This document shows positions 8,571-46,900 of a stretch of DNA of 64,000 nt, piece by piece. This DNA comes from Candidatus Magasanikiibacteriota bacterium (GTDB lineage: Bacteria; Patescibacteriota; Patescibacteriia; Magasanikbacterales; UBA922). The position numbers and the translations under genes were made by a program. How positions within the stretch are numbered: position 1 is the stretch's first letter; each line of letters begins with the position of its first letter. The notes under the pieces were generated by a model, which saw nothing but the letters and a program-made list of their open reading frames with translations, did no database searches and was not told the DNA's origin. The stretch is from contig DMXO01000005.1 in assembly GCA_003482855.1 (NCBI GenBank), positions 10,736 to 74,735 on the forward strand, given 5' to 3'.

Positions 8571-8613
8571 AATAGTAAATAGAATCTGTTTGCTATCTAT
8601 TGTTTATTAAATT

Positions 8614-9261
8614 ATGCAGGCAATTATCCTTTCCCGTCGAGATTTCCGCGAGTATGATCAGATAATATCAGTGTATACGAAGGAACAGGGTAAACTCGAA
8701 CTTCTCGCGCGTGGTATAAAAAAAATTACTAGCAAAAATTCGGCTCATATTGAGCCGTTTTCTGTCGTGGATATTGATATAGCAGAGGGGCATGAGATAA
8801 ACCATCTTACCAAAGTACAACCAGTTGAATATTTTAAAAACATTAGACAAGATTTGCAAAAAAGTTTAGCAGCACAATATGTCGTCTCCATCACTGATAA
8901 ATTCGTGCAAGTGGGGGAGCGGGATGAACGGATTTTTGAGGGGCTCAAGACATGGCTTGAATTTTTAAATATCCCAATATCCCAATATCCCAATATCTTA
9001 ATAATTGATTGTTATATTGTTGAATTGTTATATTGTCTGGGCTTTGCCATGAGTGAGGATCCAAAAATGAAGCGATGGAAGCAGAAGCTTGAGATTATGG
9101 AACGTGGGGATTGGCAAGTCGTTGCCCAACTTGAATATGATGAACAGTTACACAAAAAAATATATGAGTTTTTGTTATATCATACAGAACGAAAAGTGCC
9201 AGATTGGGCCAAAACTTGCATGATTGAGCCAAATTTGGTAGTATCAATGAACGATAAGTAA
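8614..9261 (+). CDS. recO: DNA repair protein RecO (lacks an obvious Zn-finger)
   Basis: N-terminal OB-fold pattern MQAIILSRRDFREYDQIISVYTKEQGKLELLARG. Contains an (AATATCCC)x3 tandem repeat at 8972-8996. Confidence 0.7.
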   Translation: MQAIILSRRDFREYDQIISVYTKEQGKLELLARGIKKITSKNSAHIEPFSVVDIDIAEGHEINHLTKVQPVEYFKNIRQDLQKSLAAQYVVSITDKFVQVGERDERIFEGLKTWLEFLNIPISQYPNILIIDCYIVELLYCLGFAMSEDPKMKRWKQKLEIMERGDWQVVAQLEYDEQLHKKIYEFLLYHTERKVPDWAKTCMIEPNLVVSMNDK

Positions 9262-9272
9262 TAATTTAGTGT

Positions 9273-9935
9273 ATGCTCTCTCTTTGGTTTTATAGTTTAT
9301 TTTTTCGTGAAATCACAATTGGTACATGGCAGAAAATGCCAGAAAATTTAGCTAATTTGAGCGAAAAAATAATAAAAAATGAATCGGTTCAAGGTAAAGT
9401 TTTTCGTCCTACTCCGCAAAAGAGTTGGTTTATAACTATCCTAACTACTGTAATTTTTGTTGGGTTTTTTGTCTGGCTATTTGTGCTAGGTGGTGGAATT
9501 GGTTTTTTTTATTATATTTGGTCAAAAATGCAATGGTTCTTGGTATTAATATTATTTTTTGCAATTTATTTTTTTTATTACTCTTTACTTAGTAATTGGT
9601 TTTTCCCTAGTTGGTTGAAGAAGAAACATAATCATTATTTTATATATATCGGTCCAGAGGGAATTTTGAGAAAAGATTATTTTCGTGCTTGTTTTATACC
9701 ATGGTCAATAGTCAGTGGAGCTACGGTGAGACATGGTTATTGGGGAGAGGATGGTTCTAGCCTGTCACTAGACTTATTTATTAAAGATCATAAAGTCTGG
9801 AATCCAATGTTGGTAAATGCTTATGCATATGGTTCATTTTGGTATGGACTGGTCACGTATGATATAGGAGATATGCGTTTGATTGCAAATACTATACATA
9901 ATTATGCTAAACAAATTGGTTATCAAATAAATTAA
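9273..9935 (+). CDS. Hypothetical aromatic-rich integral membrane protein
   Basis: 220 aa, ~4 TM segments rich in F/W/Y; no family recognised. Confidence 0.5.
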   Translation: MLSLWFYSLFFREITIGTWQKMPENLANLSEKIIKNESVQGKVFRPTPQKSWFITILTTVIFVGFFVWLFVLGGGIGFFYYIWSKMQWFLVLILFFAIYFFYYSLLSNWFFPSWLKKKHNHYFIYIGPEGILRKDYFRACFIPWSIVSGATVRHGYWGEDGSSLSLDLFIKDHKVWNPMLVNAYAYGSFWYGLVTYDIGDMRLIANTIHNYAKQIGYQIN

Positions 9936-9940
9936 ATACT

Positions 9941-11236
9941 ATGCATATATTAATCAAAAATATTTCACACTATGTTGGCCAAGAAATAACTTTGAAAGGT
10001 TGGCTCTATAACAAACGTTCTTCTGGCAAGATCGCATTTTTGGAAGTGCGCGATGGGACTGGTTTTATTCAGACTGTCGCGGTCAAAGATAACGTAAGCG
10101 AACAAATCTGGCAGGATATTGAAAAGACAACACAAGAATCTTCGCTCGAAGTTACGGGCATTGTTTCCAAACATCCCAAAAAAGAAAACGTATACGAGTT
10201 ACAAATTACTAGTTACGAGTTACTACAGCAAGCAGTTGATTACCCAATAGCACTCAAAGATCACGGTCCTGAATTTCTTATGGATAATAGACATTTATGG
10301 CTTAGATCAAAACGACAATGGGCTATTTTGCGCATTCGTGACATGGTAGAGATGGCTATCAATGAATATCTACATACAGAGAATTTTATTCGAACCGATT
10401 CTCCTATTTTTACACCAAACGCGTGTGAAGGTACTACTACATTATTTCCAGTTCCTTATTTTGATTTAGGCGAAGCATATCTTTCCCAATCAGGGCAATT
10501 ATATATTGAAGCAGCTATTGCCTCAGTCGGTCGATGCTATGATTTTGGGCCAGTGTTTCGCGCGGAGAAATCAATGACCAAACGACATCTGACTGAATTT
10601 TGGATGATGGATGCCGAGGGTGCATTTGTTGGGCATGACGAGAACTTGCGCATCCAAGAAGGATTGGTGAAGGCAATTATAAAGAAGTGTCTTGAGAATT
10701 GTACGCAAGAATTTGAAATTCTTGAACGCAATCCAGAACCATTAAAAAAAGTTTTGGAAAAATCATTTACCCGTTATACCTATGAAGATGCTATCAAGAA
10801 GTTGCATGAGCTTGGCAGTGACATCCAGTATGGCGAAGATCTGGGGAATGATGATGAAGGACTTCTGACCAAAGATAGTGATGTGCCAGTGTTTATCGAA
10901 AAATGGCCAAAGAGTATCAAACCATTTTATATGAAAATCGATGCGACAAATCCAGACCGAGTTTTGAATGATGATCTCATAGCAATAGAAAATGGTGGAG
11001 AGATAATTGGTGGTTCACAACGTGAAGATAATTTTGATTTACTATTGGAACGTATACGCGAAGAAAAACTTCCAGAAAAAGATTATGAGTGGTATACAGA
11101 TTTACGTAAATATGGGAGTGTTCCCCATTCGGGATTTGGTATTGGTGTCGAGCGCATGGTGCGATGGATTTCCCAGGCAGAGCATATTCGCGAGTGTATC
11201 CCATTCCCTAGGTTAGTGAATAGATTGAAGCCGTAG
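9941..11236 (+). CDS. asnS: Asparaginyl-tRNA synthetase
   Basis: Class IIb aaRS of 431 aa. Motif 2 region FGPVFRAEKSMTKRHLTEFWMMDAE matches AsnRS (FRAE) rather than AspRS. Confidence 0.85.
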   Translation: MHILIKNISHYVGQEITLKGWLYNKRSSGKIAFLEVRDGTGFIQTVAVKDNVSEQIWQDIEKTTQESSLEVTGIVSKHPKKENVYELQITSYELLQQAVDYPIALKDHGPEFLMDNRHLWLRSKRQWAILRIRDMVEMAINEYLHTENFIRTDSPIFTPNACEGTTTLFPVPYFDLGEAYLSQSGQLYIEAAIASVGRCYDFGPVFRAEKSMTKRHLTEFWMMDAEGAFVGHDENLRIQEGLVKAIIKKCLENCTQEFEILERNPEPLKKVLEKSFTRYTYEDAIKKLHELGSDIQYGEDLGNDDEGLLTKDSDVPVFIEKWPKSIKPFYMKIDATNPDRVLNDDLIAIENGGEIIGGSQREDNFDLLLERIREEKLPEKDYEWYTDLRKYGSVPHSGFGIGVERMVRWISQAEHIRECIPFPRLVNRLKP

Positions 11237-12683: not shown

Positions 12684-15600
12684 ATGAGTCGTTTTATTTC
12701 AGGTTATATAGCGCGCATGAGACATTCTGTCTCATTGAGAGCGCCCAAATTTGGGAGCCGATGGACACATCGAGTATTTTTTGTTGCTGTAGTTGTGTTC
12801 GGTGTCCTTGCTGTAGGGCAGGTAGTAGGTGCTCTTGATATAGTAGGTGGCCTTATCAGCGCAGTATCATGGATCATGCTTACCGTAGCCCAGATTTGTA
12901 TTGCACTTACTATATTTTTTCTTAGATTTTTTATTACACTTGCAAGCTACAACAACTATATAGATGTGAGTGTGGTGAAACTTGGTTGGGCCATGGTGCG
13001 TGATGTGGCAAATATGTTTTTTGTGGTGGCGCTTCTGATTATCGCGTTTGCTACTATCCTCGGACTTGAACAATATGAATGGAAAAAGGGCTTAGTCAAG
13101 CTTGTGATCATGGCTATTTTCATCAATTTTAGTAATCTCATTGCTCAACTTATTATTGATGCCGCGCATGTATTTACCATTACATTTCTCAATGCAATAT
13201 CAGCAACTGCCGGTGGCAACCTGATCAACATGTTTAAGCTTGACACGATTGTGACCATGGTAAGTGGCAAAGATCTAGGTGTGACTCCAGAATCAGCACA
13301 AACTGCCATACTCGGCGCTTCGGTTGTCGCGACATTGTTTGCCATTCTCTCAGCGGTTGCGCTTGGCTCGTATGTGATTGTCATGGCGATCCGTGTCGTG
13401 GTATTGTGGGCACTTATTATACTTTCTCCTCTTGCGTATGTGCTGTATGCAGTACCAAAGGGTGAAAAGTACGCTCAGCAGTGGTGGAGCGAATTTACCA
13501 AGCATGTTGTTGTCGCGCCGGTTATGGTTTTCTTTTTGTGGCTTGCGTTTGCCACACTTGGCTCAGGACAAATCTTGAATGAGATTGTAGGACCAGGAGT
13601 GGTGCCTCTCCAGGTGGGTGAAGAAGTACAGTCAGTGTCCCTATCAAATGTATCTTCATGGGAAAACATGGCAAATTATCTTATCGCGCTTGTATTTCTC
13701 ATGATTGGTCTCAAGATGACTCAGGAGAGTGGTGCCCAAGGTGCTGGACTTGTTGGTGGCGCAGTAAACTTTGGCAAGAAAGTGGCAACTATTGCAACGG
13801 GCTATGCTGCAGGTAGGTGGCTTGTAGGTGGAGCTGCAAAAGTTGCGGGTGGTGTTGCAAAAGGCGCCCTTTGGTATGCACCTGCTATTGGTGGAGAGAA
13901 ATGGGCTACAAGAGGCAAAATTATTGGCAATGCAGTGAAAGGTTGGTATAGAGGCAAAGGATATGAGACAACTGATGAAGGTGAACATATACGCCAAGAG
14001 ATAGAAGAAAAGCGTGAATTATTGGATAATGCCAATAGCCCAGAGCGACGGGCTGCGATTGCAAAACAAATAGAACAATTGAAAAAAGAAGAGACATCAA
14101 TAGGGGAGAAGAAAGCCGATGGTTCAGAAGGTGCATATAAAAGTGAGGCAGAAAAGAAGGCGGCGCTCGAATCAAAGCAAGCAGAAATACAGAGAAACGA
14201 AAAAATGCTTGAACAATCTCAAGGTATGACTGAGACCCAGAGAGCAGGTCTCAAGGAAGAAATAGAAGGACTTGAAAAAGAAATGCCTAAGCATATGGGT
14301 GGTGGTATGTTTGGTTATTTTGCACGCAAAGATATTCAATTACAAAAACAATTGGCAAAAACAGAAAAACAACAAGATTTTAGAAAACAAATTCTGTGGA
14401 AACGTGTAGGCTCTGAAGCAGGTGGCAATGTCATGGGTTTGAGTATTGGTATGGGAGGCAGAGGCCTTGGTTTTGGCAAGACAGGTAAGTACAGAATTTT
14501 TGGTGATAAATATAAGCAAGAAGTCAGAGAATGGGCAAAAGATGCAGAAGGTAAAGATATTGTGGGGCAACAAGCTGTGTATTTGGAGGGTTCAAAAAAA
14601 GGACAGAAAAAATGGAAACAAAAATATGCAGGCAGTGATGCCCAAGATCGTGTAGAGCGTGGGTGGTTTCAAGCAGAAGAAGAACGTTCAAAATCGAAAG
14701 ATTCTGAATATGAAACTCTAGGTAAATTGGAAGTGTTGAAAAAATCACGTCTCAAATATGATGTCGAGAGCGGAAAATTTGCTTATGAGACTGCGAAGGG
14801 TACTATGGACCAGCGTATCGCAAGTCATACTATAGCAGGAGAAGTGCATCATGCAGCCATAGAGAAGCTCGAAGCAGAGGGGCGTCTCAATCTCATGCTC
14901 GGCAAAGTGAGTCTCAAAGCTTTTACAGTCAAAGGTGTCAATGATTTGTTTGAAAAGCAGTCTATGGCAAAAGTGTACAAAGATGCGCTTGCTTCTGTGG
15001 AAGATACCAAGCTCAATGATAAACTGTCTGAAAAAATGAAATATGGGACTGGGCTGGACAAGATAGCATCACTCGTAGAGTCAGGTATGTTTGGTACGCC
15101 TGAAGAAATAGGAGCCATAGAAAAAGCCCAAAAAGAATTAGATGCTATAAAAAAAGAAAGAGAAGTAGCAAGAAAGGATGTGGTAGAAACAAACACAAGT
15201 TTGGCCGCTTTGGTAAAGAAAGAACAAGATGGTGCTGAGGTTAGCGAAGATGACAAAAAAGATTTGGTATCAGCTCGCGCCACACTTGAAGATATAGAAG
15301 AAGAGGAAAATAGAGGTGATTTAACTGACGAAAGAAGAAAAGAACTTGATGAACTCAAAGCGTATGCGCAGGAAGAAATTGCAAGTATAGAAGCGCGGCA
15401 GGATATGGCAGGATCTTTGACTTCGGAAGAAGCAATAGAAAAAGCTAAATTGGAAAGGGAAAAGACAGAGAAAGAAGAAAAAATGATTGCTTTGCTCAAA
15501 AAAGAAACAGAAGTAAAAAATCGTTTGAAAACAGCGCGTGGAGTTTTTGGACAACATGCAGAACGATTGCGTGATGGTGATGAGACAATTCTTGATCAAT

Positions 15601-17447
15601 ATCAACAACAGCTTGGTGTACTTGCGTCTGGGGAAGATGCTAAGGCAGCTGCTCTTGAACAAGAAGCAGCAACAGAAAGAGATGCAGAAAAAAAGGCAGA
15701 TAAACAAAGAGAAGCTCAAGGACATAGAGCCAAAGCAGCAGACTATAGAACTACGCATGGAATTTTTGAGAAGCAGAGATCTACTCTTGGACAAGGTGGT
15801 GTTGCTTGGCAGTATGGCCTTGCCAAGGCAAAACAAGCTGAACAAAAAAGATCTCATGATTATGAACACAATTTACTCTTGTCTGATTCAGAGCAGCGCT
15901 CTATTTGGGATAAACGTGGTATCAATACGCCAACAAATGCCATGCGTGAAATGATTGAACAAATGGAAAAAGATTTTTCTCAGATGTCGTACGAGACGTT
16001 TGTCGAAAGTTCTGGCAAAATGTTTATTGAGATGGCTGAGAAGTCTGCCAAAGGTACGATTACTAATGCTGATAGAGCCGCACTCGCAGGATTTTTCAAG
16101 CGTGGGTTCAATGAATCATGGGTTGATGATGTCATCATTGGTGTGATGACCAATGAAGAATCGCGCGCTGCTATTGGTTCACAATTAGGATGGCGTGACG
16201 CAGGATTTTCTCCAGACAAAATTCGTGATCTTGAGATGTTTATTGCATCAGGTGGAAACACCAAATTTGCAAAAAATAATGTTGTTATATCTGAGATAGT
16301 AGATGAAGCAATGAATGGTGACAAAGAATATAGGATGAGTGTTGCTCAGGTATATGAGGGTCTTAATACAGGTGTTTTCAAAAAAGAGGATGGCACCAGC
16401 TTTAGTCCTGAAGCCATACAAAAATTGAAAGCAGCCACACGGAAACGTCTCACTGAAGAGAATCGCGTGTTGACTACATACCAACAAGATTTATTTGACA
16501 AATTTTTAGCAACCGAAGCCAAACAGATTGAAGGGTCTGCACAACAGCGAGGTGAGGTTATGAAGCATTATCTCGATACTCTAGAAGAAAGTCAGGGATC
16601 AATGGAGTGGTTTGGCAACTTGCGTAATGAGGCTATTCGCAATGGGCATGGTGAAAATGCTGGTTGGGCTTTGTCGCACGACGTAGGCGGTGGCAAATCT
16701 ATGTATATTGCTTCAGGTGTGCGCATGGCACGTGATCATGTATATTTTGACTTGAACAAGACTGATCAATATATGCGTTCAAAAGCGCACCCACATTCAG
16801 ACGTGAACTTGGCTATTGGTGGCGAAGGTGAAGATTACGGACAGATTTCAACAGAGATTCGAGATTATGATTACAAAACCATGCGTGGCGATATTGTGGA
16901 CGCCAATGGTCATCGTGGTACAACTGCGCGTACGATACAGTTCCACATGGGGTTGTCATCTGCAGACAAGACTGCTGATCAAAAAGATTCTAATGGATTT
17001 TTTGCTGTTGGTAAAGCAAAGAGTACGCGTGCTGTATGGAGAAAGAATCAGGCGCTCGCATTTAAGCTTGCAAAAGAAAAGAGACTTAAATTATCCAATG
17101 GCGTTACGGTAAATGAAGCTGATGAAAATAAACGAGAAGAAGCTCTTGCTGCTATGATGGTCATGAAAAACATCATGGTTCCGCAGATGCGCGCAAACAT
17201 GAATGACTTCCTCATGACTGCGGCCGTTGCTTCTGGTATGAGCGCATATGATGGAGTCAAGGGTAATATGCGTCTTTCACTGCCTTATTTTGAAAAAGAT
17301 GGAAGCGTACATTATAAATCTTTCTCGAGAGCCCAAGATTTTATAGGTGCCGTAAGGTCAGGTATGTTTGGAGAACATTTTGGTGGTATACCAAATTTCA
17401 AGCCGTCTGATTCAGGCAGACCAGATCAGGATCATACGCCTTCCTAG
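12684..17447 (+). CDS. Giant VirB6/TrbL-like polytopic membrane protein (1587 aa)
   Basis: Residues 1-330 have ~7 TM helices with TrbL/VirB6-like spacing. A Gly-rich linker follows, then a ~500-aa E/K-rich coiled coil (res ~430-1000), then a ~580-aa C-terminal domain. Sits in a locus with VirB3- and VirB4-like genes. Confidence 0.6.
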   Translation: MSRFISGYIARMRHSVSLRAPKFGSRWTHRVFFVAVVVFGVLAVGQVVGALDIVGGLISAVSWIMLTVAQICIALTIFFLRFFITLASYNNYIDVSVVKLGWAMVRDVANMFFVVALLIIAFATILGLEQYEWKKGLVKLVIMAIFINFSNLIAQLIIDAAHVFTITFLNAISATAGGNLINMFKLDTIVTMVSGKDLGVTPESAQTAILGASVVATLFAILSAVALGSYVIVMAIRVVVLWALIILSPLAYVLYAVPKGEKYAQQWWSEFTKHVVVAPVMVFFLWLAFATLGSGQILNEIVGPGVVPLQVGEEVQSVSLSNVSSWENMANYLIALVFLMIGLKMTQESGAQGAGLVGGAVNFGKKVATIATGYAAGRWLVGGAAKVAGGVAKGALWYAPAIGGEKWATRGKIIGNAVKGWYRGKGYETTDEGEHIRQEIEEKRELLDNANSPERRAAIAKQIEQLKKEETSIGEKKADGSEGAYKSEAEKKAALESKQAEIQRNEKMLEQSQGMTETQRAGLKEEIEGLEKEMPKHMGGGMFGYFARKDIQLQKQLAKTEKQQDFRKQILWKRVGSEAGGNVMGLSIGMGGRGLGFGKTGKYRIFGDKYKQEVREWAKDAEGKDIVGQQAVYLEGSKKGQKKWKQKYAGSDAQDRVERGWFQAEEERSKSKDSEYETLGKLEVLKKSRLKYDVESGKFAYETAKGTMDQRIASHTIAGEVHHAAIEKLEAEGRLNLMLGKVSLKAFTVKGVNDLFEKQSMAKVYKDALASVEDTKLNDKLSEKMKYGTGLDKIASLVESGMFGTPEEIGAIEKAQKELDAIKKEREVARKDVVETNTSLAALVKKEQDGAEVSEDDKKDLVSARATLEDIEEEENRGDLTDERRKELDELKAYAQEEIASIEARQDMAGSLTSEEAIEKAKLEREKTEKEEKMIALLKKETEVKNRLKTARGVFGQHAERLRDGDETILDQYQQQLGVLASGEDAKAAALEQEAATERDAEKKADKQREAQGHRAKAADYRTTHGIFEKQRSTLGQGGVAWQYGLAKAKQAEQKRSHDYEHNLLLSDSEQRSIWDKRGINTPTNAMREMIEQMEKDFSQMSYETFVESSGKMFIEMAEKSAKGTITNADRAALAGFFKRGFNESWVDDVIIGVMTNEESRAAIGSQLGWRDAGFSPDKIRDLEMFIASGGNTKFAKNNVVISEIVDEAMNGDKEYRMSVAQVYEGLNTGVFKKEDGTSFSPEAIQKLKAATRKRLTEENRVLTTYQQDLFDKFLATEAKQIEGSAQQRGEVMKHYLDTLEESQGSMEWFGNLRNEAIRNGHGENAGWALSHDVGGGKSMYIASGVRMARDHVYFDLNKTDQYMRSKAHPHSDVNLAIGGEGEDYGQISTEIRDYDYKTMRGDIVDANGHRGTTARTIQFHMGLSSADKTADQKDSNGFFAVGKAKSTRAVWRKNQALAFKLAKEKRLKLSNGVTVNEADENKREEALAAMMVMKNIMVPQMRANMNDFLMTAAVASGMSAYDGVKGNMRLSLPYFEKDGSVHYKSFSRAQDFIGAVRSGMFGEHFGGIPNFKPSDSGRPDQDHTPS

Positions 17448-24553: not shown

Positions 24554-24643
24554 TGGCGGAGAGAGTGGGATTCGAACCCACGGTGGACTTTCATCCACAA
24601 CAGTTTTCAAGACTGCCGCCTTAAACCACTCAGCCATCTCTCC
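24554..24643 (-). tRNA. tRNA-Ser (anticodon UGA), type II, CCA encoded
   Basis: Minus-strand clover-leaf: GGAGAGA acceptor, anticodon loop CUUGAAA, long variable arm, GGTTCGAAT T-loop, discriminator G. Confidence 0.85.
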
Positions 24644-24728
24644 ATTTAAATAATTAGAACTAGTATCTATCTCGCTTACGCGAGTCTGGCGGACTGTGTC
24701 CGTCGTAGCTCGCTTTGGCGAGCGAAGG

Positions 24729-24815
24729 CGGAGAGGGCGGGATTCGAACCCGCGAGGGAATTGCTTCCCTAACACATTAGCAGCGTGCCGCTTTCGGCCA
24801 CTCAGCCACCTCTCC
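24729..24815 (-). tRNA. tRNA-Ser (anticodon GCU), type II
   Basis: Acceptor GGAGAGG/CCTCTCC, anticodon loop CUGCUAA, long variable arm, T-loop TTCGAAT, discriminator G. Confidence 0.85.
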
Positions 24816-24874
24816 ATTGGGATTTGTTACGCTACGTTGGGCAAGTGTGTAGGGCGTAGCATAAAGGAGTCCTG

Positions 24875-24961
24875 CGGAGAGTGAGGGATTCGAACCCCCG
24901 GTCCCCTTGCGGAGACTGCAGTTTAGTAAACTGCTGCTATCGACCACTCAGCCAACTCTCC
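24875..24961 (-). tRNA. Type II tRNA (Ser-like identity: G73, GGAGAGU acceptor) with anticodon loop UUACUAA, i.e. an apparent ACU anticodon
   Basis: Manual fold: acceptor GGAGAGT/ACTCTCC; D-arm GCT...AGC; anticodon stem GCAGT/ACTGC; loop TTACTAA; 17-nt variable arm; T-arm GGGGG-TTCGAAT-CCCTC. Anticodon identity needs tool confirmation. Confidence 0.7.
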
Positions 24962-27638: not shown

Positions 27639-27667
27639 TTGACAAATGTAGCTCAATATGGTATTAT
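27639..27667 (+). promoter_or_regulatory. Strong sigma70-like promoter (TTGACA, 17 bp, TATTAT) with no CDS downstream
   Basis: TTGACA 27639-27644; TATTAT 27662-27667; the following ~515 nt have no ORF of 60 aa or more in any frame. Confidence 0.6.
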
Positions 27668-27674
27668 GTCAGGT

Positions 27675-28192
27675 CTTTTAAAATTAAGATAAGGATATAG
27701 AAAACTATGTGTTTTGCTGTCCTGTACAGTAAAAGCACATACTCTCCTGTGTCCTTGTATAGATCAAACTTGAGTAGACTTGTTGTAAAGTAATGAACAT
27801 AAAAGTACGTATCAGTTTGTCTATAGTATCTCTTGAAGAGATAGGGCGAGGATATAGAGTTAATACGGATTTGTTTAGTAGTATCTGGTCAAGTACGTAT
27901 TACCCTGTATCTTCACCATAGGAGGACAGGAACGACCCCGAAGAACTTTCGCTACCGCTTTAGTTTTCGGGGCGGGACGAGGATTCAGAATCGTACATAT
28001 TTTAAAAGAGAGACAATGAAATAAATATGTATAATCCTGTATCCACGACAAGCATGGGGGTGTATTATAGGCTAAAACAGGCTACGGCTCGTTTCTGACC
28101 TAGAATACACCTTCTTGGGTACAGTATTTAGGGAATTTTCCCTAATTTATATGCTAAAGCCCTCTACTTTTTATAAAGTAGGGGGTTTTTAT
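27675..28192 (+). ncRNA. Candidate structured ncRNA (~515 nt) of unknown class, bounded by a promoter and a terminator
   Basis: ORF-free; consensus promoter upstream. Ends at an 11-bp-stem terminator (CCCTCTACTTT/AAAGTAGGGGG plus T5) at 28160-28192. Several internal hairpins, e.g. CCCCGAA...TTCGGGG. Confidence 0.35.
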
Positions 28193-28211
28193 TTTACGTT
28201 GTGATTTTACC

Positions 28212-28240
28212 TTGACAATGTGGTTATTTTGTGCTATACT
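28212..28240 (+). promoter_or_regulatory. Second sigma70-like promoter (TTGACA, 17 bp, TATACT)
   Basis: TTGACA 28212-28217; TATACT 28235-28240. Confidence 0.6.
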
Positions 28241-28246
28241 ATGCTG

Positions 28247-28430
28247 TTTTAATACAATCAATTTTTGTACTTAAAATAAGTTCATTAAAAATTTTCCAAC
28301 GCGTAAAATAGTGTTTTTATGATAAATATTATTTTTCGCGTTGGAAGAATAACACCCATACAGTGTGGGTGATCTATATAAGGTGGTCTTTGCCAAACCA
28401 TCTATCCAGTCGCTAGTGACTGTTTTTTTA
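28247..28430 (+). ncRNA. Candidate small RNA (~185 nt) ending in a hairpin plus T7 at 28406-28430; could alternatively be a 5' leader of the downstream GC-rich gene
   Basis: Hairpins CCAACGCG...CGCGTTGG and CACCCA-TACAG-TGGGTG; terminator-like CAGTC-GCTAGT-GACTG followed by TTTTTTT. Only a 17-codon ORF lies inside. Confidence 0.3.
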
Positions 28431-28487
28431 ATCAAGTCCTTCTGGTAGAGATTGATCATCTCTACTGGACGCCTGAAATGGTGAAAA

Positions 28488-29060
28488 ATGGGCGGCTTGT
28501 TCGGCAGACGAGTCAACTTTGAGGGGGTTCCCTTGAAGCAGATCATCCTAGTGTTGGTGCTGGTGCTCTGCAGCCTGGTGGGCTGCGCGACGACGGGATC
28601 CGTCCGGACGGATGTGGCGAGCCAGGTGACGAATGTCACCAATCATGGCTCGTTCATCAGGATCGGAGCGGAAGAGGGCATCGCGTTCGATCGGTTCAAG
28701 GAAGATCTCAGATCGGAGACTCGTCCGGTTCTCGTCATCTTTGGCGAGAGCTGGTGCCCTGCATGTGGGAACCTCGAAGAGTTCTGGGCAGGCCAGGAGA
28801 TCACAGAGCTCGGGGTCTACACCATCGACCTCAAAGATGGCGGTGTTGCTGAGATGATCACCCAGGGCCTGTACGAGCCGGTCATTCCTCTCGACTGGAA
28901 CGTTATCCCGGTCTGTGTGCTTCTTCTTCCGGGTTCTCCGATCATGGTTGGTCGTGGCGTCTACGATTGTGGAGAAGCCGTGCTCGAGCGCATCCAGTTC
29001 GAGAAGGACCATCCCGAGAGTCCCACCACGCACCCGTCCAGGCCCAAGGTTCGGACCTAG
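28488..29060 (+). CDS. Thioredoxin-fold (WCPAC) lipoprotein encoded on a ~60% GC island
   Basis: Signal peptide plus lipobox LVGC|A; TlpA/ResA-like motif VLVIFGESWCPACGNL. GC content and GC3 are far above the flanking DNA. Confidence 0.65.
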   Translation: MGGLFGRRVNFEGVPLKQIILVLVLVLCSLVGCATTGSVRTDVASQVTNVTNHGSFIRIGAEEGIAFDRFKEDLRSETRPVLVIFGESWCPACGNLEEFWAGQEITELGVYTIDLKDGGVAEMITQGLYEPVIPLDWNVIPVCVLLLPGSPIMVGRGVYDCGEAVLERIQFEKDHPESPTTHPSRPKVRT

Positions 29061-29261
29061 CTTCCCCTTAAGGATCACCGACTACATCGCCCACATTCGT
29101 GGGGGTGCGGTGGACCCTTCCCCGATTGTGACTTCCCTGCGTGGCAGGTGGACTTGTTCTGAGTGATTGAAGCGCCTCGCTTCTCATGCAGACAGTCTGC
29201 CTGCCGGGGACCAATGAAAAAATCACCTTCGTTGAAATTATGGTGAGCAAAGGAGGAAAAA

Positions 29262-29306
29262 CAAAAAATCACCTTTCAGCTTCGTTCAAGGTGATTTTTT
29301 GTTTTT
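29262..29306. terminator. Bidirectional rho-independent terminator shared by the GC-rich gene (+) and clpP (-)
   Basis: 12-bp stem AAAAATCACCTT/AAGGTGATTTTT with an 11-nt loop, flanked by an A-run upstream and a T-run downstream. Confidence 0.65.
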
Positions 29307-29313: not shown

Positions 29314-29907
29314 TTATGTGATTACTTTGTCGACTATTCCATACGCGACTGATTCTTCTGCACTCATGAAGTAGTCTCTGTCACTATCTTTTTCGATTTC
29401 GGCCATTGGTTTATTTGTATGCTGTTGCAATATATGATTGAGCCTGTCTTTGATTTTGAGGATTCGTTCGGCATGGATTTTTATATCACTTGCTTGACCT
29501 TGGGTGCCACCCATGACTTGATGAATCATAACCTCGCTATTGGGAAGACAAAATCTTTTTCCTTTTGCGCCAGCGGCCAGAAGTACTGATGCCATACTCG
29601 CAGCCATACCTATACAGATGGTAGATACATCTGGTTTTATATATTGCATAGTATCATAAATAGCAAGTCCTGCGGTCACAGATCCACCTGGTGAATTGAC
29701 ATACAGTTTTATATCTTTTTCTGGGTCTTGGTTTGCGAGAAATAACATTTGGGCTATTACAATATTTGCTACATGATCGTCTATTTCAGTACCAAGAAAA
29801 ATAATACGGTCCTTGAGTAATCGCGAATAGATATCATAAGCACGCTCGCCATGAGTAGTTTTTTCTATGACTGTTGGTATGAGGATTTGGGATCTGACGT
29901 CTTTCAT
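29314..29907 (-). CDS. clpP: ATP-dependent Clp protease proteolytic subunit
   Basis: 197 aa; ClpP Ser/His/Asp context (GMAASMAS...MIHQ). Confidence 0.95.
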
Positions 29908-40912: not shown

Positions 40913-43900
40913 ATGATGAAATCGTCCCGAAAAACATTATTACTAGGATTACTCCTTTCTTTCGTACTTGGAGGATTTTTGTTTTATGTTTCTCCTATTT
41001 TTGGACAGACAACTGATACGTTTGGTGTAGCACCGATAGATCAAAATTTAATTTTGGGCCAGAGTGACATACGCGTGACTGTGGTAAAAATTATTAATAT
41101 CGCCCTTGGTTTGCTTGGTATCGTGGCTCTGGGTATCGTGTTGTACGGCGGGTTTGTGTATATGACTGCAGGTGGTGCAGAGGATAAAGTTGCAACCGCG
41201 CGGAAGATACTCGTCAATGGCACGATAGGGCTTGTTATTATTTTGTCTGCGTTTGCCATTACGCGATTTGTACTCAACAAACTTATACAGGCGACCGGTG
41301 CCAACACAACCACTGAAAATTTGGATGGTAGTTGCAGTGAACCAGGTACTCCATATTATGAGAAATATCATGGTACTGTTGTATGCGATGCATTCTGTAA
41401 TTTGTATCAAAGCCAGTGTTGTTATGCAGAACATTTTGTTGTGAAGAGTATCACTCCAAGCACACCAAGTGCAGGAGATACGACAGACATGTACAATATT
41501 ATCATCCGTGCTTTATTCAGTAATGAGGTTGCAGGCCCTGCCAATCAAGTTTTACAAATATTCAAAAAGAATGGCACCCAGAAAGAAAACATCACTGATC
41601 AATTTTCATTTAATTATGATGGAAATGGTACTATAGTGGAAGCTATACTTAATGGACATGTGTGTGATGAAACTTTGTACCCCAGTGAACATTGTTTTGA
41701 TCCAGGAGAATACGAAGTCTTGGTAATGAATGTAAAAGATAAGCAAGGAAATGAACTTGAGGCTCAGACAGATTGTGGGACATTCCCCAAAGATGCTTCT
41801 TTCAAGACAGGAGAACGTACCCGAGACCAACTTATATTTATGACTCCTGCATCTGCAGGGGGGCCATATGATGTTGGTCAATACACACTTTTGACTGCCC
41901 TGAAAGAGGTTGATATTACTCATGGTATCGAACAAGTATGGAATCCGTTTGATACACAAAGTGGGTGTGTAGTGACCGGCAATTGGAGACGTATTACTGA
42001 AGTACCAGGTCACGAAGGGGATACCGGTTTTGTCGAAATTATAGATAGTGAGAGACAACTTAGACAATATCCTATTTATGTAGTGTCTGCCAATGAAAAT
42101 GCCAATGTCACATGTAGTGGCAGTGTTATAGGAGTTACTCAGGTTCGTTTTGAGACGTATACGCCGACTTCTTCTCTGGTTACTGGTCTTATATATGTAC
42201 AAGGTAAAACAGATGATGATGAGGTAGACCTGCAGAGGGTGTATCAAGAGACAGATATATCTGGATGGAAAAAAGTCGGTGGCGACGGGCATACCTATAC
42301 ATTGGGGAATTATGATGATTTTGTAGACAAGACACCGCCTGTGGTAGATCCATTGACTGCAAATGGAACTGCTGGTGATGGCGTGAGACTTGTTCAAGGA
42401 ATTGAATATCCTTTTGTGACAACTTTGCGTGACACCAATGGCAACGCATATGGTGACTTACATATTTATAAACAGGGATCAGCAAGTGCTATTCTTGATG
42501 AGTTTATTGATGGACCACGTGTATTGGATGGTTCTAGTGGTCCATTTGTTGTGAATTATGGTTTTAGGGTTCCCTATAGTTTTGAATTTAATACAAATTA
42601 TGTCGCAGAAATACGCGCGTATGATATAGATAGCAATGAGACATTGGAACAGATAGTATTCCGTGTCGTGCCAGAATATTGTGATGAGCCTGAGCATGCA
42701 GAAGATCCTGTGTGTATTGGTAGCAATGGCACATGTAAAGTTCAGGCAGATTGTGCTGCGTGGCTCAAATGTCTTGATACTGATGGATCTTTGTGCCAGA
42801 CAGGGGATACTCTTTGTGAATGTACGTCGTGGCCATATATAGAAAGTGTTACGCCACTCAATGGCGCTTCTGGTAATTGGGTCACTATTCAAGGAAAAGG
42901 TTTTGGCGATGAGGAAGGTTCATTGGCTTTCAATTACGTAGATGGTAATAGTGATAAAGATTACGAGGACGCGGGTGACACGCGCACTAGTATGAATTTG
43001 GCCCAATGTCGCGGTACTGATGTGTGGAAAGATACATGGATTATTGCCGAAGTCCCTGTGCAGGCAGGTACTGATTTACCCGCTCCAAACATATCTGTTA
43101 GACATACAACAACAGGATATACTGATTATACTACTGATGACTTTGGCCCCGTTGTTGGCACGTTTACTTACAATGACACCAAACGTCCGGGTCTATGTAG
43201 TGTACAAGTGTCAGAGGATACTGCATTTCCTCTTGTTGATGGCACAGTGACCGTATTTACCGCAAGTTCTACGTATGGTGTACCTTCTACTCCTATACAG
43301 GCTTTTGGTAAAGGGTTTGGATCATATGCCACAAATAATGTACTTGATTTCGGTGGTGTGGCTGCGTCAGTAGGTTCAGGATCTTGGAGTGAAGAGATCA
43401 TTACTTCAGTAGTACCGTTTGTTTCTCCTGGACGCATAGCAGTGAGTGTTGTCGCAAGCAGTGGAGAGAGAAGTAATCCTGTTCCTTTTGATGTATATTC
43501 TTTGCAAGATCTCAATCCTCCGGTGATCACTGCGATAGATCCAGCAACTACGACACCGGGGAGTTATATTACGATATACGGGTCAAATTTTGGCAATAAC
43601 CAGGGAATTGTAAAGATTGGCGGTTTGCCATCTGCTGCATTGCCTGAATATTGTGGTGACACCTGGTCAGATACCCAAATTGTCGTTAAAGTCCCAAGCA
43701 CTATTCTTGACGCAAGTGGAACTAGTGAAGTGTTGCCAGTAGTTGTTGAGCGTACTGACAATGGACTCAAGAGTAACGGCAGTGATAAAGCTGGTATTAT
43801 AGTTGGCCCACCGCGACCAAGTATTTGTAAATTGGATCCAGAGACTGGTCCTGCTCCGCTGTCTGGGAGTAATAGACTGACACTCAAAGGTGAAAATTTT

Positions 43901-46900
43901 TCAGCTTCACCAAATATATATTTTTGGGGTCCAGAATCCACGAGTACTGTGATGAGTACATGGCTATATGAGTCTTTTGCAAGTGGTAGGATAGTGAATG
44001 AGGTAGCAGACAAACATATTACTACGCCTATCCCCGTGAATACGCTCAAAGGATATTCCATGGTGACTGGTCCTATACATGTCATAAGTACTACCGGCGA
44101 ATTAAGCAATAGTGTGCGTTATAATGTAACTGACTGTCGTGAACCAAATGCAGGGACTATCTCAGGTTTTCAATGTTGTACTGAAGGAAAAGAAGCTGGT
44201 AGATGGAAGCACGATTCATTTATTTGCGAAGGCGGTACGCGTGATGCTGGTTATGTATGGCGTATGACCACAGGCAAAATTCCCGATCAATTTTTTGTTG
44301 TTGAATCCTGTTCAGAAAGTGCTCCATCTCCAACGCCGTGGGAATCATGGCCACAAGGTAAAGTAGCTTGTCTCAATGCACAACTTCAGGCGCGATTTAG
44401 TTTGCCTGTAGATCCAGATACTGTGGGCATAGGAACCATTAATACGGCAAATGTCGGCGTATTTACTTGCGGTCAAGGACAGACAGCAGACTGTATTAGC
44501 GCACGACAAAATGTTTCACCCAATTTTACATCAGACATATGGGGTTCTGACATGTTTGTTTTGAGGCCTATTGCTGGGGATTTGCAGCCAAATACCTGGT
44601 ATCGTATAGCCTTTTCTCAAAATGTTGCATCGCTCCGCGAAGAGATGAGACTTGGAGTGAGTGTTACTACTACAGAAAATCTTTTGGCTACGCGTCCTTG
44701 TGATACCGATGGCGACGGAACGCTTGATGCGGCATATTGTTTTGATTTTAGGACAGGGGATGTGGATGAGATTTGTACACTGGTCGGAGCAGGGATGTAC
44801 AAAGATGAATATACGACCAAGATGCTTGGTGTTGTACAGGATTCACGATACGGCAAAATCTATCAACTCAATAAAATTTTTGATCCATACGATCCAGACA
44901 TTCATCCATTGTATTATTTTGTGTATGGTATTGCCAACCAAGAGTGTACGGTCATCAATGTAGACAACAAACCTTGGGATTGGGGCGATGATGAAAACAC
45001 ACCAGCAACAGGACACAAGTTTCCCGGCGATTCGTATGTGCATTCACGTGGTGTGGCCAAAGCATGGGAGCATTATCCAGAAGGGTATGACATTTTTGCG
45101 TATATAGATGAAAATCAAGACCTTGAACCTGAAGGGCCCACTGGCCCTACTGTCGTCGACGTGCTTCAACTTGCGGGTGTAGAGTACGCAAATGGATATG
45201 ACGACGGAAGAGCTTTATTGCCGGGTGATACTATAGACGATGTCAATTTAAATTTTTCTGAATCATTTAATATACGTTTTGATTTTTCTATCACTGATAT
45301 AGATGCGATGAATGCTAATTATCATTATTTGTTAGGTTCTGATGCTTTTTTCGTCTATTTAAATAGACAGGCAGAGGCATTTATTTCGTTATTTTATCTT
45401 ACCAGTGGTGGCAACAGTTTGTATCTTGATGATCCTGATGCGGTAGATATACTGGTAGAAGGACAAAGATATGTGTATGAGATAGATTTTAATAAACAGG
45501 ACATGCTCTTGAGACTCTTGCGGGATGGAAATGTCGTGAACTCAGTGCAGGTTACTGCTCAAATGGAGATGGCCCAAATTCCATCATCGGGTACAGTATG
45601 GGCCCATGATAATACTATCATTGACCTCTTGAAAATGTATGATTTGGAGATTACCAAAGGAGAAGAAACATCAGGACAGGGTCCAGATATATCGCGCATA
45701 ACAGCCACCAGTACTCTGTATATCGACCTTGGAGATCCAAAAGTTTTGAGTAAATGGCCACTTTGTATAGAAGCATGTATCAATGCTGAGATTGGTGCGC
45801 AGTTTGACCAGATAATGGATATGACGACATATGCAAATCATATACAGCTTTTTGAATGTAATAATGGAGAAACATGCACATCTTTGACAGAAATTCCTGT
45901 CACTATAGCAGACAGTAGTAGTGAGACTATTGTACGCGCATATGCTGATCCGCCAGGAGATGCATATTATCTTGAAAAAAATACATGGTATCTGGTCAAG
46001 ATATTGGATGGCATCCATGCCATTGGAAGTGCAAAGTATGGTGAAGATGGAACTATAATTCAAGGTGTTCAAGGAAAATCTGTTGTACCGACTCAATGGA
46101 AATTTAGAACGAAAAATTCAGAAGAGCCTTGTGTGATAGATAATGTACAGCTCTATCCTGATCCATTTACGGCGACATACATTGGTCAGAAACAACAATA
46201 CACTGCTTTGCCAAAAGGAGCTCCTGACGCATGTAGTCCTTATGGCCAATTCTTGAATCCATGGGATTATGGTTGGGAATGGGATGTGGCACATGATCAT
46301 ATCGCCACAACAACCAACTTTAGCATGTCAACGGTGTTCAACAAGGCATGTACTATTAATTGTTTGCCCGCAGGGAGTGACATTACGAAAGGAAGCTATA
46401 CAACATATCCTATTTGTGGTAATGGTGTTATTGATGTTGGTGAAGATTGTGACATCGCGAGCACTACGCCACGTACCAACCAAGGTGGCGCTCCTAGTAT
46501 TGCAGAAAACCCAGGAATTAGTTGTTCATATATATGTCTTCGCCCTGGCAATGGTAACAAAGGAGAACCGGGCACTGAAGGAGTCTGTGGAAATGGAATA
46601 GCCGATTATTATCAAGGTGAAGAATGTGATTTCAATGATCCTCAGCTTATAATTATCGATAGTGATGGTAATGAAAGAGATTACCGACCTTATTGTAGCG
46701 ACACATGTCAGTGGACTGGGTCAACACCAGAAAAAACCGGAGAACTTGCCAAGCCCGTGTGTGGAAGTAGTGGGGTTACACCAGGAGAGGATTGCGATAT
46801 ATCTGATGACACAACCAAGATAGGTTGTTCAAGTGTGTGTTTACATAGTGGTACGCCACTTATGCAACATTGGTGCGATACCGCTCCTGCATCTGCACAA

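What the first reader, a model, noticed from the sequence alone, without database searches (positions are those of the whole stretch)
28470..29215. ~0.75-kb island of ~60% GC in a ~38% GC genome, encoding a thioredoxin-like lipoprotein
Base composition jumps abruptly. The CDS 28488-29060 is GC3-rich (codons such as CTG, GGC, GAG dominate), unlike all other genes here. It encodes a lipobox (LVGC) signal and a WCPAC thiol-disulfide oxidoreductase motif. The island lies between two ncRNA candidates and a bidirectional terminator that contains a duplicated AAAAAATCACCTT word. This is either a recent horizontal acquisition from a high-GC donor or an assembly chimera.
Basis: seen in the sequence. 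Interest (0 to 1): 0.6.

Follow-up and report, generated by a model that had tools for sequence, protein, structure and literature searches.

The report
GC-rich thioredoxin lipoprotein gene cassette
A 0.72-kb GC-rich stretch in an AT-rich ultra-small (CPR, Magasanikbacteria) bacterium is real, not an assembly error. It carries an orphan surface redox-protein gene, and related bacteria hold other GC-rich secreted-protein genes at the same spot, so it looks like a swappable accessory cassette.

Summary
GC is 0.586 between change-points 28490 and 29209, against 0.397±0.027 for the rest of the window. The ORF's GC3 is 0.74, against 0.32±0.04 for 36 other ORFs (z≈11). An assembly chimera is excluded: 14 of 15 contigs from independent assemblies are 99.98-100% identical to the window wherever they overlap it. 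The CDS is a real gene for a lipoprotein with a thioredoxin fold (lipobox LVGC, WCPAC, conserved cis-Pro). It is nearly an orphan: exhaustive HMMER over 1.84 billion representatives found one full-length homolog, at 31% identity. That homolog lies in a sister Patescibacteria genome (GC 0.36), at a different locus, and is also a GC-rich island (GC 0.57, GC3 0.70). The window's site, between a conserved ncRNA terminator and the clpP terminator, is empty in two related species. In two others it holds different GC-rich units encoding unrelated secreted Cys-rich proteins. Each unit has its own promoter, an AT-rich leader, a GC-rich CDS and a structured GC-rich 3' flank. The best reading is a laterally exchanged accessory cassette at a hot spot. 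The donor is unknown. "Simple recent HGT from a high-GC donor" is only partly supported.

The parts
27639..28195 (+). Context: a conserved non-coding transcription unit that forms the left neighbour of the insertion site. Promoter at 27639-27667, terminator at 28156-28189.
   Evidence: Promoter and terminator scan. Alignable in five species, with a roughly 110-nt nearly invariant core. The consensus is a long hairpin. No Rfam family reaches its gathering score.
28196..29256 (+). Whole accessory unit (~1.06 kb), present in this species but absent from the empty sites of species C (L013) and D (L031).
   Evidence: In C and D the ncRNA terminator is followed after about 50 nt by the clpP terminator. 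The right-hand limit is approximate, 29210-29256.
28212..28240 (+). Sigma-70-type promoter of the unit: TTGACA, 17-nt spacer, TATACT, with TG before the second hexamer.
   Evidence: 11 of 12 matches. Similar promoters sit at the same relative position in the units of species B and E.
28241..28487 (+). AT-rich leader. Inverted repeat 28294-28316/28324-28346, hairpin 28353-28371, terminator-like hairpin 28407-28422 plus T7, hairpin 28442-28468, SD-like GGTGA at 28480-28484.
   Evidence: GC is 0.29-0.40 in 200-bp windows. No Rfam match above threshold. Function is inferred as an attenuator or operator and was not tested.
28488..29060 (+). CDS of a 190-aa thioredoxin-fold lipoprotein. A possible alternative start is TTG 28533, preceded by GAGGGGG at 28521-28527.
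   Evidence: ORF. Codon-position GC 0.61/0.42/0.74. One full-length homolog, E 8e-20, with conserved motifs. Thioredoxin topology in the model and Foldseek hits.
28575..28586 (+). Lipobox L30-V-G-C33, the predicted lipidation cysteine.
   Evidence: Read. The lipobox position is conserved as L-T-S-C in P0122.
28752..28766 (+). Active-site motif W89-C-P-A-C93.
   Evidence: Invariant W-C-P-x-C in both family members. Matched by the Thioredoxin_7 and Thioredoxin models and by DsbE/CcmG chains.
28905..28910 (+). I140-P141, the putative cis-proline loop of the thioredoxin fold, followed by conserved C143.
   Evidence: Invariant in alignment A1. Lies just before predicted strand 142-146. The cis conformation is inferred.
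29061..29209 (+). GC-rich (0.60), strongly structured 3' flank. It starts with the CU-rich tract CTTCCCCTT directly after the stop codon.
   Evidence: MFE -69.6 kcal/mol for the folded stretch 29061-29232, z -4.0 against shuffles. Composition. A CU tract occurs in 5 of 7 units, against 13% of control windows.
29217..29229 (+). Extra copy of AAAAAATCACCTT at the right edge of the island. It is probably a partial duplicate of the terminator's left arm.
   Evidence: D7, I6. Reading the sequence gives AAAAAATCACCTT-CGTT against AAAAAATCACCTT[TCAGCT]TCGTT. Treating it as an insertion scar is inference.
29257..29306 (.). Bidirectional intrinsic terminator shared with the convergent clpP gene (29314-29907, -).
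   Evidence: Perfect 19-bp inverted repeat with A/T runs.

Best explanation
The island is genuine chromosomal DNA of a clonal Candidatus Magasanikbacteria (Patescibacteria/CPR) population.

Structure. It is the GC-rich body (ribosome-binding site, CDS and about 150 nt of structured 3' UTR) of a roughly 1.06-kb accessory transcription unit. The unit brings its own sigma-70-type promoter and an AT-rich leader of about 250 nt. It sits between the terminator of a conserved ncRNA and the clpP terminator. That position behaves as a hot spot. It is empty in two related species. In two others it holds different GC-rich units that encode unrelated secreted cysteine-rich proteins.

Function (inferred). 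The protein is exported by Sec and lipidated at Cys33. It is then held on the outer face of the membrane, where its thioredoxin domain exchanges thiols and disulfides with exported cysteine-containing proteins. The relevant features are WCPAC and the cis-Pro loop, and the proposed role is that of a CcmG/ResA/TlpA/Etrx-type reductase or isomerase.

Origin (inferred). The composition marks DNA that did not evolve under this genome's mutational regime. The most likely route is lateral exchange of such cassettes among related Magasanikbacteria, by recombination in conserved flanks and shared 3' modules. The ultimate source would be a lineage of roughly 60-65% GC that is absent from current databases.

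Shown: reality of the island, coding status, fold and motifs, hot-spot occupancy, cassette replacement between conserved flanks. Inferred: redox role, mode and direction of transfer.
For: Not a chimera.
- 14 of 15 contigs from different runs, assemblers and repositories match the window at 99.98-100% wherever they overlap it.
- ClpP-VanW spacing is identical in all of them.

Coding.
- The GC3>GC1>GC2 pattern appears in this frame only.
- The sole homolog, P0122, aligns end to end.
- The lipobox, WCPxC, IPxC, CGE and the C-terminal PKVxT are all invariant.

Fold.
- The secondary-structure order is the thioredoxin one, with CxxC at a helix N-terminus.
- The top 29 Foldseek PDB hits are all thioredoxins or thioredoxin domains, and nearly all of the 50 listed are thioredoxin-fold proteins.
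- The best solved relatives by sequence are DsbE/CcmG, E 2.6e-4.

Hot spot.
- Species B (NrnA 72% identical) has a GC 0.60-0.65 island at the same site encoding a 198-aa secreted Cys-rich protein.
- Species E (57%) has a GC 0.57-0.67 island there with a 122-aa secreted Cys-rich ORF.
- Species C and D have an empty site.

Cassette replacement.
- At a second locus (TrmB|X|KGG), B carries the thioredoxin homolog and C carries two unrelated GC-rich exported-protein genes.
- B-C homology stops about 25 nt after the promoter and resumes at or just after the stop codon, in a GC-rich 3' flank.
- That flank's last ~95 nt recur at B's other island at 76% identity.

Foreign composition is shared by all seven cargo genes.
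- GC3 is 0.70-0.83.
- RSCU values correlate positively with each other and negatively with host genes.
Against: - No donor was found. The family has only two members among about 15 billion proteins, both in CPR genomes. There was nothing in plasmids, phages, viral or metagenome contigs.
- The two homologs are saturated at synonymous sites: 23 of 52 codons identical against 21.8 expected by chance. Both nevertheless keep GC3 at or above 0.70. This fits in-situ maintenance of GC as well as it fits independent imports.
- The AT-rich leader travels with each GC-rich CDS, which is odd for DNA from a 60-65% GC donor.
- There is no integrase, transposase, tRNA target or direct-repeat boundary near the island.
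- Additional islands in other loci were found by scanning for high GC. 'All cassettes are GC-rich' is therefore partly an ascertainment effect.
- The structure model has low confidence (pLDDT 51), and the redox function is untested.
Confidence: 0.55

Rival explanations
1. Long-term resident cassettes. The GC-rich units are a native gene class of this Magasanikbacteria clade. Their high GC (CDS and 3' UTR) is actively maintained in an AT-rich genome, by selection on the DNA or mRNA or by a biased process. It is not a trace of recent import.
For: - The only homolog is in a sister CPR genome recovered from other samples. It is also GC-rich, and synonymous sites between the two are saturated.
- A common architecture recurs with unrelated CDSs in species down to 52% NrnA identity. 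It comprises a promoter, an AT-rich leader, a strong SD, a GC-rich exported-protein CDS, a GC hairpin and a bidirectional terminator. A post-stop CU tract is present in 5 of 7 units.
- The GC-rich 3' flank is 73% identical overall between B and C and is nearly unchanged in its last ~110 nt. Four-fold degenerate sites of neighbouring genes are only 0.43-0.54 identical.
- One compensatory change is seen in the flank's hairpin stem.
- First-codon-position GC (0.556 against 0.526) and amino-acid composition are only slightly shifted from host proteins, and the largest shift is at third positions.
Against: - No mechanism is known that would hold GC3 at 0.7-0.8 in a genome whose GC3 is 0.32.
- Highly conserved and presumably highly expressed host genes (clpP, rpsP) do not show it.
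- Cassettes are not shared between B and C (NrnA 89%), so each cassette's residence time looks short.
- The conserved 3' flank could equally reflect recent exchange.
- The CU-tract statistic is post hoc and rests on 6-7 partly dependent cases.
Confidence: 0.25
2. One-off recent HGT. A DNA fragment from a high-GC bacterium was integrated directly at this site, and there is no cassette pool in CPR.
For: - The compositional jump is sharp, and codon-position GC fits a genome of roughly 55-63% GC by the standard regressions (my arithmetic from the codon-position values; pooled cassettes).
- The site is empty in species C and D.
- The lipobox and thioredoxin motifs are typical of ordinary bacteria.
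Against: - No homolog exists in any GC-rich genome.
- The same site is occupied by other GC-rich units in B and E, and the only homolog is in B's second island.
- The inserted segment begins with a roughly 290-nt AT-rich promoter and leader.
- There are no mobility genes.
Confidence: 0.15
3. Assembly or binning chimera. A fragment of a GC-rich organism was mis-joined into a CPR contig.
For: - One scaffold (L018, ERZ28563708) departs from the window inside the island at 28932 and carries 358 unrelated bases at its end.
- The NCBI MAG contig of species B starts inside that species' island.
- GC-rich islets are therefore places where assemblies break.
Against: - Both junctions are reproduced base for base in 14 other contigs from different runs and assemblers.
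- The divergent L018 end puts a stop codon in frame and carries an unrelated ORF on the other strand, as expected of a scaffold-end artefact in that one assembly.
- Independent species show the same kind of island.
Confidence: 0.02
4. The GC-rich stretch is a structured non-coding RNA, and the ORF is an accident of GC-rich sequence, where stop codons are rare.
For: - GC-rich islands in AT-rich genomes are often RNA genes.
- An antisense ORF of 176 aa also exists at 28548-29078, and some gene callers chose it (L020).
- The 3' flank is highly structured.
Against: - GC3>GC1>GC2 periodicity is seen in the + frame only.
- A 31%-identical homolog conserves exactly the lipobox Cys, WCPxC and the cis-Pro loop.
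- The thioredoxin family models give sub-threshold hits (E 8e-5 to 2.6e-4), and the low-confidence model's Foldseek hits are thioredoxins.
- No Rfam hit.
Confidence: 0.02

Closest known systems
Membrane-anchored extracytoplasmic thioredoxin-fold oxidoreductases: CcmG/DsbE, ResA, TlpA and the pneumococcal Etrx lipoproteins (family properties from general knowledge)
   Same: - N-terminal signal or lipid anchor.
- Thioredoxin fold with W-C-x-x-C at a helix N-terminus and a cis-Pro loop.
- The best PDB sequence matches are DsbE/CcmG.
- P0122 touches TIGR00385 dsbE.
   Different: - Scores are far below every curated cut-off: Pfam 23.1 against 27, TIGR00385 20 against 123.
- The family has only two members.
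- It has an extra conserved Cys pair, C143 and C161.
- There is no cytochrome-c maturation or CcdA/DsbD gene in the annotated 20-kb neighbourhood.
- It is encoded in a GC-rich islet of a CPR genome.
Small horizontally acquired genomic islets carrying ORFan accessory genes at recombination hot spots
   Same: - Atypical composition.
- Presence, absence and replacement among close relatives at one syntenic site.
- Cargo consists of envelope proteins.
   Different: - No tRNA target, integrase or direct repeats.
- No identifiable donor.
- A recurrent internal architecture and a shared 3' module.
- An AT-rich promoter and leader belong to the unit.
Integron gene cassettes
   Same: - Single compact ORFs followed by a structured 3' element.
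- ORFs are replaced while the 3' element stays, as in B against C at locus 2.
   Different: - No RYYYAAC...GTTRRRY core-site pair in any flank.
- No integrase in the neighbourhood.
- Every unit has its own promoter.
- Units occur singly, not in arrays.
Surface-antigen loci of atypical GC exchanged through conserved flanks, such as O-antigen and capsule loci (general knowledge, an analogy only)
   Same: - Envelope-related cargo.
- Composition persistently unlike the genome.
- Allelic replacement between conserved flanking sequences.
   Different: - One or two small genes instead of operons.
- GC is higher rather than lower than the genome.
- Several loci per genome.

Membership tests
Thioredoxin-fold superfamily | Beta-alpha-beta-alpha-beta-alpha-beta-beta-alpha core topology | tested here: met
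   The AF2 model has the right order: E56-59 H64-76 E81-85 H91-101 E109-113 H119-125 E142-146 E153-156 H160-174 (pLDDT only 51). The top 29 Foldseek PDB hits are all thioredoxins or thioredoxin domains, and nearly all of the 50 listed are thioredoxin-fold proteins.
Thioredoxin-fold superfamily | CxxC active site at the N-terminus of the helix after strand 2, plus a cis-Pro loop | tested here: met
   W89-C-P-A-C93 lies at the start of helix 91-101. I140-P141 lies before strand 142-146. Both are invariant in the only homolog. The cis conformation itself was not testable.
Thioredoxin-fold superfamily | Score above the Pfam gathering threshold (Thioredoxin, Thioredoxin_2, Thioredoxin_7) | tested here: not met
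   The best hit is Thioredoxin_7 at 23.1 bits against a cut-off of 27, E 8.1e-5, covering residues 67-99 only.
CcmG/DsbE (TIGR00385) and the TlpA/ResA type | Full-length match above the curated cut-off | tested here: not met
   P0001 matches no NCBIfam family. P0122 scores 20 bits against a cut-off of 123. The PDB profile hit to DsbE has E 2.6e-4 over about 57 residues.
CcmG/DsbE (TIGR00385) and the TlpA/ResA type | Genomic association with cytochrome-c maturation genes or CcdA/DsbD | tested here: not met
   No such Pfam family appears among the genes called in the roughly 20 kb around the island. The rest of the genome was not examined.
Bacterial lipoprotein | Signal peptide ending in the lipobox [LVI][ASTVI][GAS]C | tested here: met
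   KQIILVLVLVLCSLVGC, with L-V-G-C at residues 30-33. The homolog has L-T-S-C at the aligned position.
Bacterial lipoprotein | Lgt and Lsp present in the genome | not tested
   Lgt (PF01790) is encoded near the homolog in species B. The window's species was not checked beyond the 64 kb.
Horizontally acquired genomic islet | Composition and codon use atypical for the genome | tested here: met
   GC 0.586 against 0.397±0.027. GC3 z=11. RSCU is anticorrelated with host genes.
Horizontally acquired genomic islet | Absent from the syntenic site of close relatives | tested here: met
   The site is empty in species C and D and has different cargo in B and E.
Horizontally acquired genomic islet | Identifiable donor lineage or closer homologs outside the recipient clade | tested here: not met
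   Only P0122, which is in a sister CPR genome. Nothing else was found in 1.84 billion representatives, 5.8 billion clusters, metagenome or viral contigs, plasmids or phages.
Integron gene cassette | attC site with R''/R' core sites (RYYYAAC ... GTTRRRY) 3' of the ORF | tested here: not met
   A regex on both strands of six 3' flanks gave 0 pairs. No dedicated attC model was available.
Integron gene cassette | Integron integrase and attI nearby, with cassettes in an array | tested here: not met
   No integrase-type Pfam family within about 20 kb, and the units are single.

The most novel reading that the evidence does not exclude
Magasanikbacteria carry a previously undescribed class of transcript-sized, GC-rich mini-cassettes. 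Each consists of a sigma-70 promoter, an AT-rich leader, a strong SD, a GC-rich ORF for an orphan exported protein, a GC hairpin and usually a post-stop CU tract. The cassettes occupy recurrent sites next to terminators, and their ORFs are swapped between conserved promoter and 3' modules. Their GC-richness is actively maintained, or continuously replenished from a hidden pool, rather than being a fading trace of a single transfer. Because gene callers trained on the AT-rich host often pick the wrong strand, much of this cargo is invisible in protein databases.
Probability: 0.25. Interest if true: 0.75.

Novelty: new variant of a known kind. Interest (0 to 1): 0.55.

Why it matters
CPR/Patescibacteria are thought to live attached to host cells, and their surface and secreted proteins are the likely tools of that lifestyle. 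If the reading is right, these reduced genomes keep a few hot spots where small exported-protein genes of foreign composition are repeatedly swapped.

The cargo seen here includes a lipid-anchored thiol-disulfide oxidoreductase and cysteine-rich secreted proteins. Together these hint at an extracytoplasmic disulfide system.

It also exposes a practical blind spot. In several public assemblies the gene call on these islands is missing or on the wrong strand. Such cargo is therefore under-represented in protein databases, and contigs tend to break there.

Finally, there is an evolutionary puzzle that can be tested with population and time-series data. Two homologs, saturated at synonymous sites, both keep GC3 at or above 0.70 in genomes with GC3 of about 0.32, and no donor is found.

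Tried and rejected
- Assembly chimera. Rejected on contig concordance. The single discordant scaffold end (L018) is itself an artefact.
- ncRNA instead of a gene. Rejected on codon-position GC, motif conservation and family-model hits, and there is no Rfam match.
- Donor search. All of the following found only the protein itself and P0122:
  - word-seeded search with the single protein;
  - word-seeded search with the two-sequence profile;
  - exhaustive phmmer;
  - profile-derived DNA patterns in metagenome contigs and viral contigs;
  - tblastn against plasmids and phages;
  - an exact island word in viral contigs.
- Integron cassette. No attC core sites and no integrase.
- Target-site duplication or att repeats flanking the island. 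None were found; the 13-mer copies both lie to the right of the island.
- Uptake-sequence idea for the terminator word AAGGTGATTTT. It is not repeated elsewhere in the window.
- Genome-contig scan with the NrnA protein. It found nothing, so neighbours were reached through NrnA homologs instead.
- Strain-level polymorphism for dN/dS or substitution direction. Impossible, because all assemblies of species A and of species B are about 99.98-100% identical.
- The 3' motif in viral contigs. No match.
- Literature searches on GC-rich islands or cassettes in CPR and Magasanikbacteria. Nothing specific was found.
- Cross-similarity among cargo proteins. None beyond the thioredoxin pair.
Full report
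**Observation**

Sliding-window composition shows GC rising from 0.29-0.40 to 0.51-0.60 between about 28,400 and 29,300. A two-break likelihood segmentation puts the edges at 28490 and 29209. All other 700-bp windows give 0.397±0.027 with a maximum of 0.49.

ORF 28488-29060 (+, 190 aa) is present. Its codon-position GC is 0.61/0.42/0.74, whereas its neighbours have GC3 of 0.30-0.37. Among 37 long ORFs of the window it is the only outlier: GC3 is 0.738 against 0.318±0.038, z about 11.

The lipobox LVGC (28575-28586) and WCPAC (28752-28766) are there. The 13-mer AAAAAATCACCTT occurs at 29217 and at 29263, and the second copy is an arm of a perfect 19-bp inverted repeat that terminates the convergent clpP gene.

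**Not an artefact**

The exact protein is encoded on at least 11 contigs. The exact 746-bp island is present in five fetched contigs from Logan, NCBI (GCA_001783195.1), ENA and other runs. A look-up with the neighbouring ClpP brought ten more loci.

Fourteen of the 15 contigs match the window at 99.98-100% wherever they overlap. The ClpP-VanW spacing is always 1,751 bp.

One scaffold (L018) leaves the window inside the island at 28932. Its 358 extra bases put a stop codon in frame and carry an unrelated ORF on the other strand, so that scaffold end is the chimera, not the window. Read depth could not be checked.

**It is a protein gene**

The GC3>GC1>GC2 pattern is specific to the + frame. The antisense 176-aa ORF is the usual by-product of GC-rich DNA, and some pipelines called it instead.

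Pfam gives only sub-threshold thioredoxin hits around the CxxC. An exhaustive phmmer scan of 1.84 billion representatives found one full-length relative, P0122 (181 aa, 31% identity, E 8e-20). All other hits touch only the CxxC region of unrelated thioredoxin-repeat proteins.

The pairwise alignment keeps the following invariant:
- the lipobox cysteine;
- G-E-x-W-C-P-x-C;
- I-P-x-C, the cis-Pro position;
- C-G-E;
- the C-terminal P-K-V-x-T.

An AF2 model from this two-sequence alignment is of low confidence (pLDDT 51). It nevertheless has the thioredoxin strand and helix order with CxxC at a helix N-terminus. Its top 29 Foldseek PDB matches are all thioredoxins or thioredoxin domains, and nearly all of the 50 listed are thioredoxin-fold proteins. 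By profile, the nearest solved sequences are DsbE/CcmG, E 2.6e-4.

I therefore read it as a lipid-anchored extracytoplasmic thiol-disulfide oxidoreductase. It works like CcmG/ResA/TlpA/Etrx, but it is not a member of those families by any curated threshold. A TTG at 28533, preceded by GAGGGGG, is a plausible alternative start and would give the classic MKQIILVLVLVLCSLVGC signal.

**The surprise: the homolog is also a GC island**

P0122 lies on the same 344-kb contig as an NrnA protein 72% identical to the window's, so it belongs to a sister Patescibacteria species ('B'). It sits at a different locus (TrmB | P0122 | KGG-GAPDH). It is again a GC-rich island: gene GC 0.568 and GC3 0.70 in DNA of GC 0.36.

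A profile of the two proteins found nothing else in 5.8 billion clusters or in metagenome or viral contigs. The single protein found nothing in plasmids or phages.

The two genes are saturated at synonymous sites, with 23 of 52 codons identical against 21.8 expected by chance.

**The site is a hot spot**

I followed NrnA homologs into related genomes.

| Species | NrnA identity to the window | Site between the ncRNA and clpP |
|---|---|---|
| B | 72% | GC 0.60-0.65 island encoding a 198-aa secreted, cysteine-rich protein on the strand equivalent to the window's + strand; the database gene call there is on the wrong strand |
| E | 57% | GC 0.57-0.67 island with an uncalled 122-aa secreted Cys-rich ORF |
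| C | 73% (89% to B) | Empty: the terminator of a conserved ncRNA is followed after about 50 nt by the clpP terminator |
| D | 61% | Empty, with the same layout as C |

Relative to the empty sites, the window's insert is about 1.06 kb (28196 to about 29256). It begins with a promoter (28212-28240) and a 250-nt AT-rich leader containing inverted repeats and a terminator-like hairpin. Only the RBS, the CDS and a 150-nt structured 3' flank are GC-rich. The units of B and E begin with a similar promoter within 1-14 nt of the ncRNA terminator.

**Cassette replacement**

At the TrmB|KGG locus, B carries the thioredoxin homolog. C carries two unrelated GC-rich genes, one for a secreted protein and one for a lipoprotein with thrombospondin-type-3 repeats.

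B-C homology runs through TrmB and the promoter to about +25 and then vanishes. It resumes at or just after the stop codon, in a GC-rich 3' flank that ends in a GC hairpin plus CTTCGAATGTTTTACTCTT. This flank is 73% identical overall between B and C and nearly unchanged in its last ~110 nt. Four-fold sites of the neighbouring genes are only 0.43-0.54 identical. Its last ~95 nt recur, with one compensatory stem change, at B's other island.

A third GC-rich gene in B encodes a PgpA-like membrane protein. A species at 52% NrnA identity has a GC 0.53 islet encoding a lipoprotein, which was again called on the wrong strand.

All seven strongly GC-rich cargo genes have GC3 of 0.70-0.83, encode exported or membrane proteins, and share codon usage that is anticorrelated with host genes. 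The extra islands were found by looking for high GC, so their uniform GC-richness is partly ascertainment.

**Interpretation**

The island is best explained as an accessory cassette of foreign composition at a recombination hot spot. It was probably exchanged among related Magasanikbacteria through conserved flanks and 3' modules, with an unknown ultimate source of about 60-65% GC.

The simple 'recent HGT from a high-GC donor' account has three problems:
- no donor exists among about 15 billion proteins;
- the only homolog is in another CPR islet;
- the AT-rich leader belongs to the unit.

The alternative is that GC-richness is maintained in situ. Several observations favour it:
- synonymous sites of the two homologs are saturated, yet both keep GC3 at or above 0.70;
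- the GC-rich flank is conserved;
- first-position GC and amino-acid composition are close to the host's;
- the architecture recurs, including a CU-rich tract right after the stop codon in 5 of 7 units, against 13% of control windows (post hoc).

That alternative lacks a mechanism, and the apparent rapid turnover of cargo between B and C speaks against it.

Integron cassettes were tested and rejected, because there are no attC core sites and no integrase. No mobility gene, tRNA target or flanking direct repeat was found.

**Limits**

- There are no read-level data.
- Strain variation is absent: both species are clonal in public data.
- There are only two family members.
- The structure model has low confidence.
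- Only about 20 kb per related genome was examined.
- Function and transfer route are inferences.

Noticed in passing
window 27639-28195; also L011 ~9385-9790 (-), L013 ~9735-10200 (-), L031 ~5885-6350 (-), L032 ~12886-13290 (-): A roughly 400-550-nt non-coding transcription unit with its own TTGACA/TATTAT promoter and an intrinsic terminator lies between VanW and the cassette site. It is conserved in five Magasanikbacteria species. A core of about 110 nt (CCTGTATCCACGACAAGCATGGGGGTG...ACACCTTCTTGGGTAC) is almost invariant even at 57% NrnA identity and folds into a long hairpin. No Rfam family matches. The window's copy has an extra ~130-nt segment and four copies of a 21-nt repeat.
   Followed up: partly
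L011 8480-9160 (+) vs 8534-9130 (-); L020 900-1430; L032 12100-12650; L034 2821-3408 (-) vs 2569-3420 (+): Public gene calls on GC-rich islets in these AT-rich genomes are often on the wrong strand or missing. The ORF with proper GC3 periodicity and a signal peptide is on the other strand. Protein databases therefore under-represent this cargo.
   Followed up: partly
L018 5977-6334 (ERZ28563708 scaffold_3491); L027 start: One public scaffold switches to unrelated sequence (GC about 0.50) inside the island at window 28932. The species B MAG contig begins inside that species' island. GC-rich islets are assembly break points. L018 also carries a G-to-T difference at about window 29148 in the 3' flank.
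   Followed up: yes
window 24554-24961 (-): There are three tandem tRNA-Ser genes. The third (24874-24961) has an anticodon loop TTACTAA, i.e. anticodon ACU with A34, which is unusual for bacterial tRNA-Ser.
   Followed up: no
window 29257-29306 vs L006 ~16868-16900 (-): The window's clpP/cassette terminator (AAAAAATCACCTT...AAGGTGATTTTTTGTTTT) shares an 18-nt arm with the terminator behind the PgpA-like GC-rich gene of species B. It differs in type from the clpP terminators of species B-E (ACTGGTG/CCAGTGG type). The terminator may travel with cassettes, or the match may be chance.
   Followed up: partly
window 29061-29069; L011 ~8517-8533 (-); L028 ~822-829 (-); L034 3421-3431: A CU-rich, anti-Shine-Dalgarno-like tract (CTTCCCCTT, TTCTTTCCCCTCCCC, CTCCTTCC, CACCCCCTTCC) starts within 0-3 nt of the stop codon in most GC-rich units. 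In the window it could pair with GAGGGGG at 28521-28527. This is a post hoc observation.
   Followed up: partly
L011 ~8225-8315 (-), L013 ~9650-9700, L032 ~13420-13490: Copies of a palindromic repeat (GTCATTCCGAG...CTCGGGATGAC type, and CAACTCACCCCGTCCCGAATACTCGGGAC...) lie beside the cassette site in several species. They may be MITE-like elements.
   Followed up: no
window 40913-52588 (+) and 12684-17447 (+): There are two very large ORFs (3,891 aa and 1,587 aa) of normal composition. The neighbourhood also encodes T4SS-like proteins (PrgI, TraC-like, VirB4/DUF87) and a T4SS-pilin/Big_5 protein.
   Followed up: no
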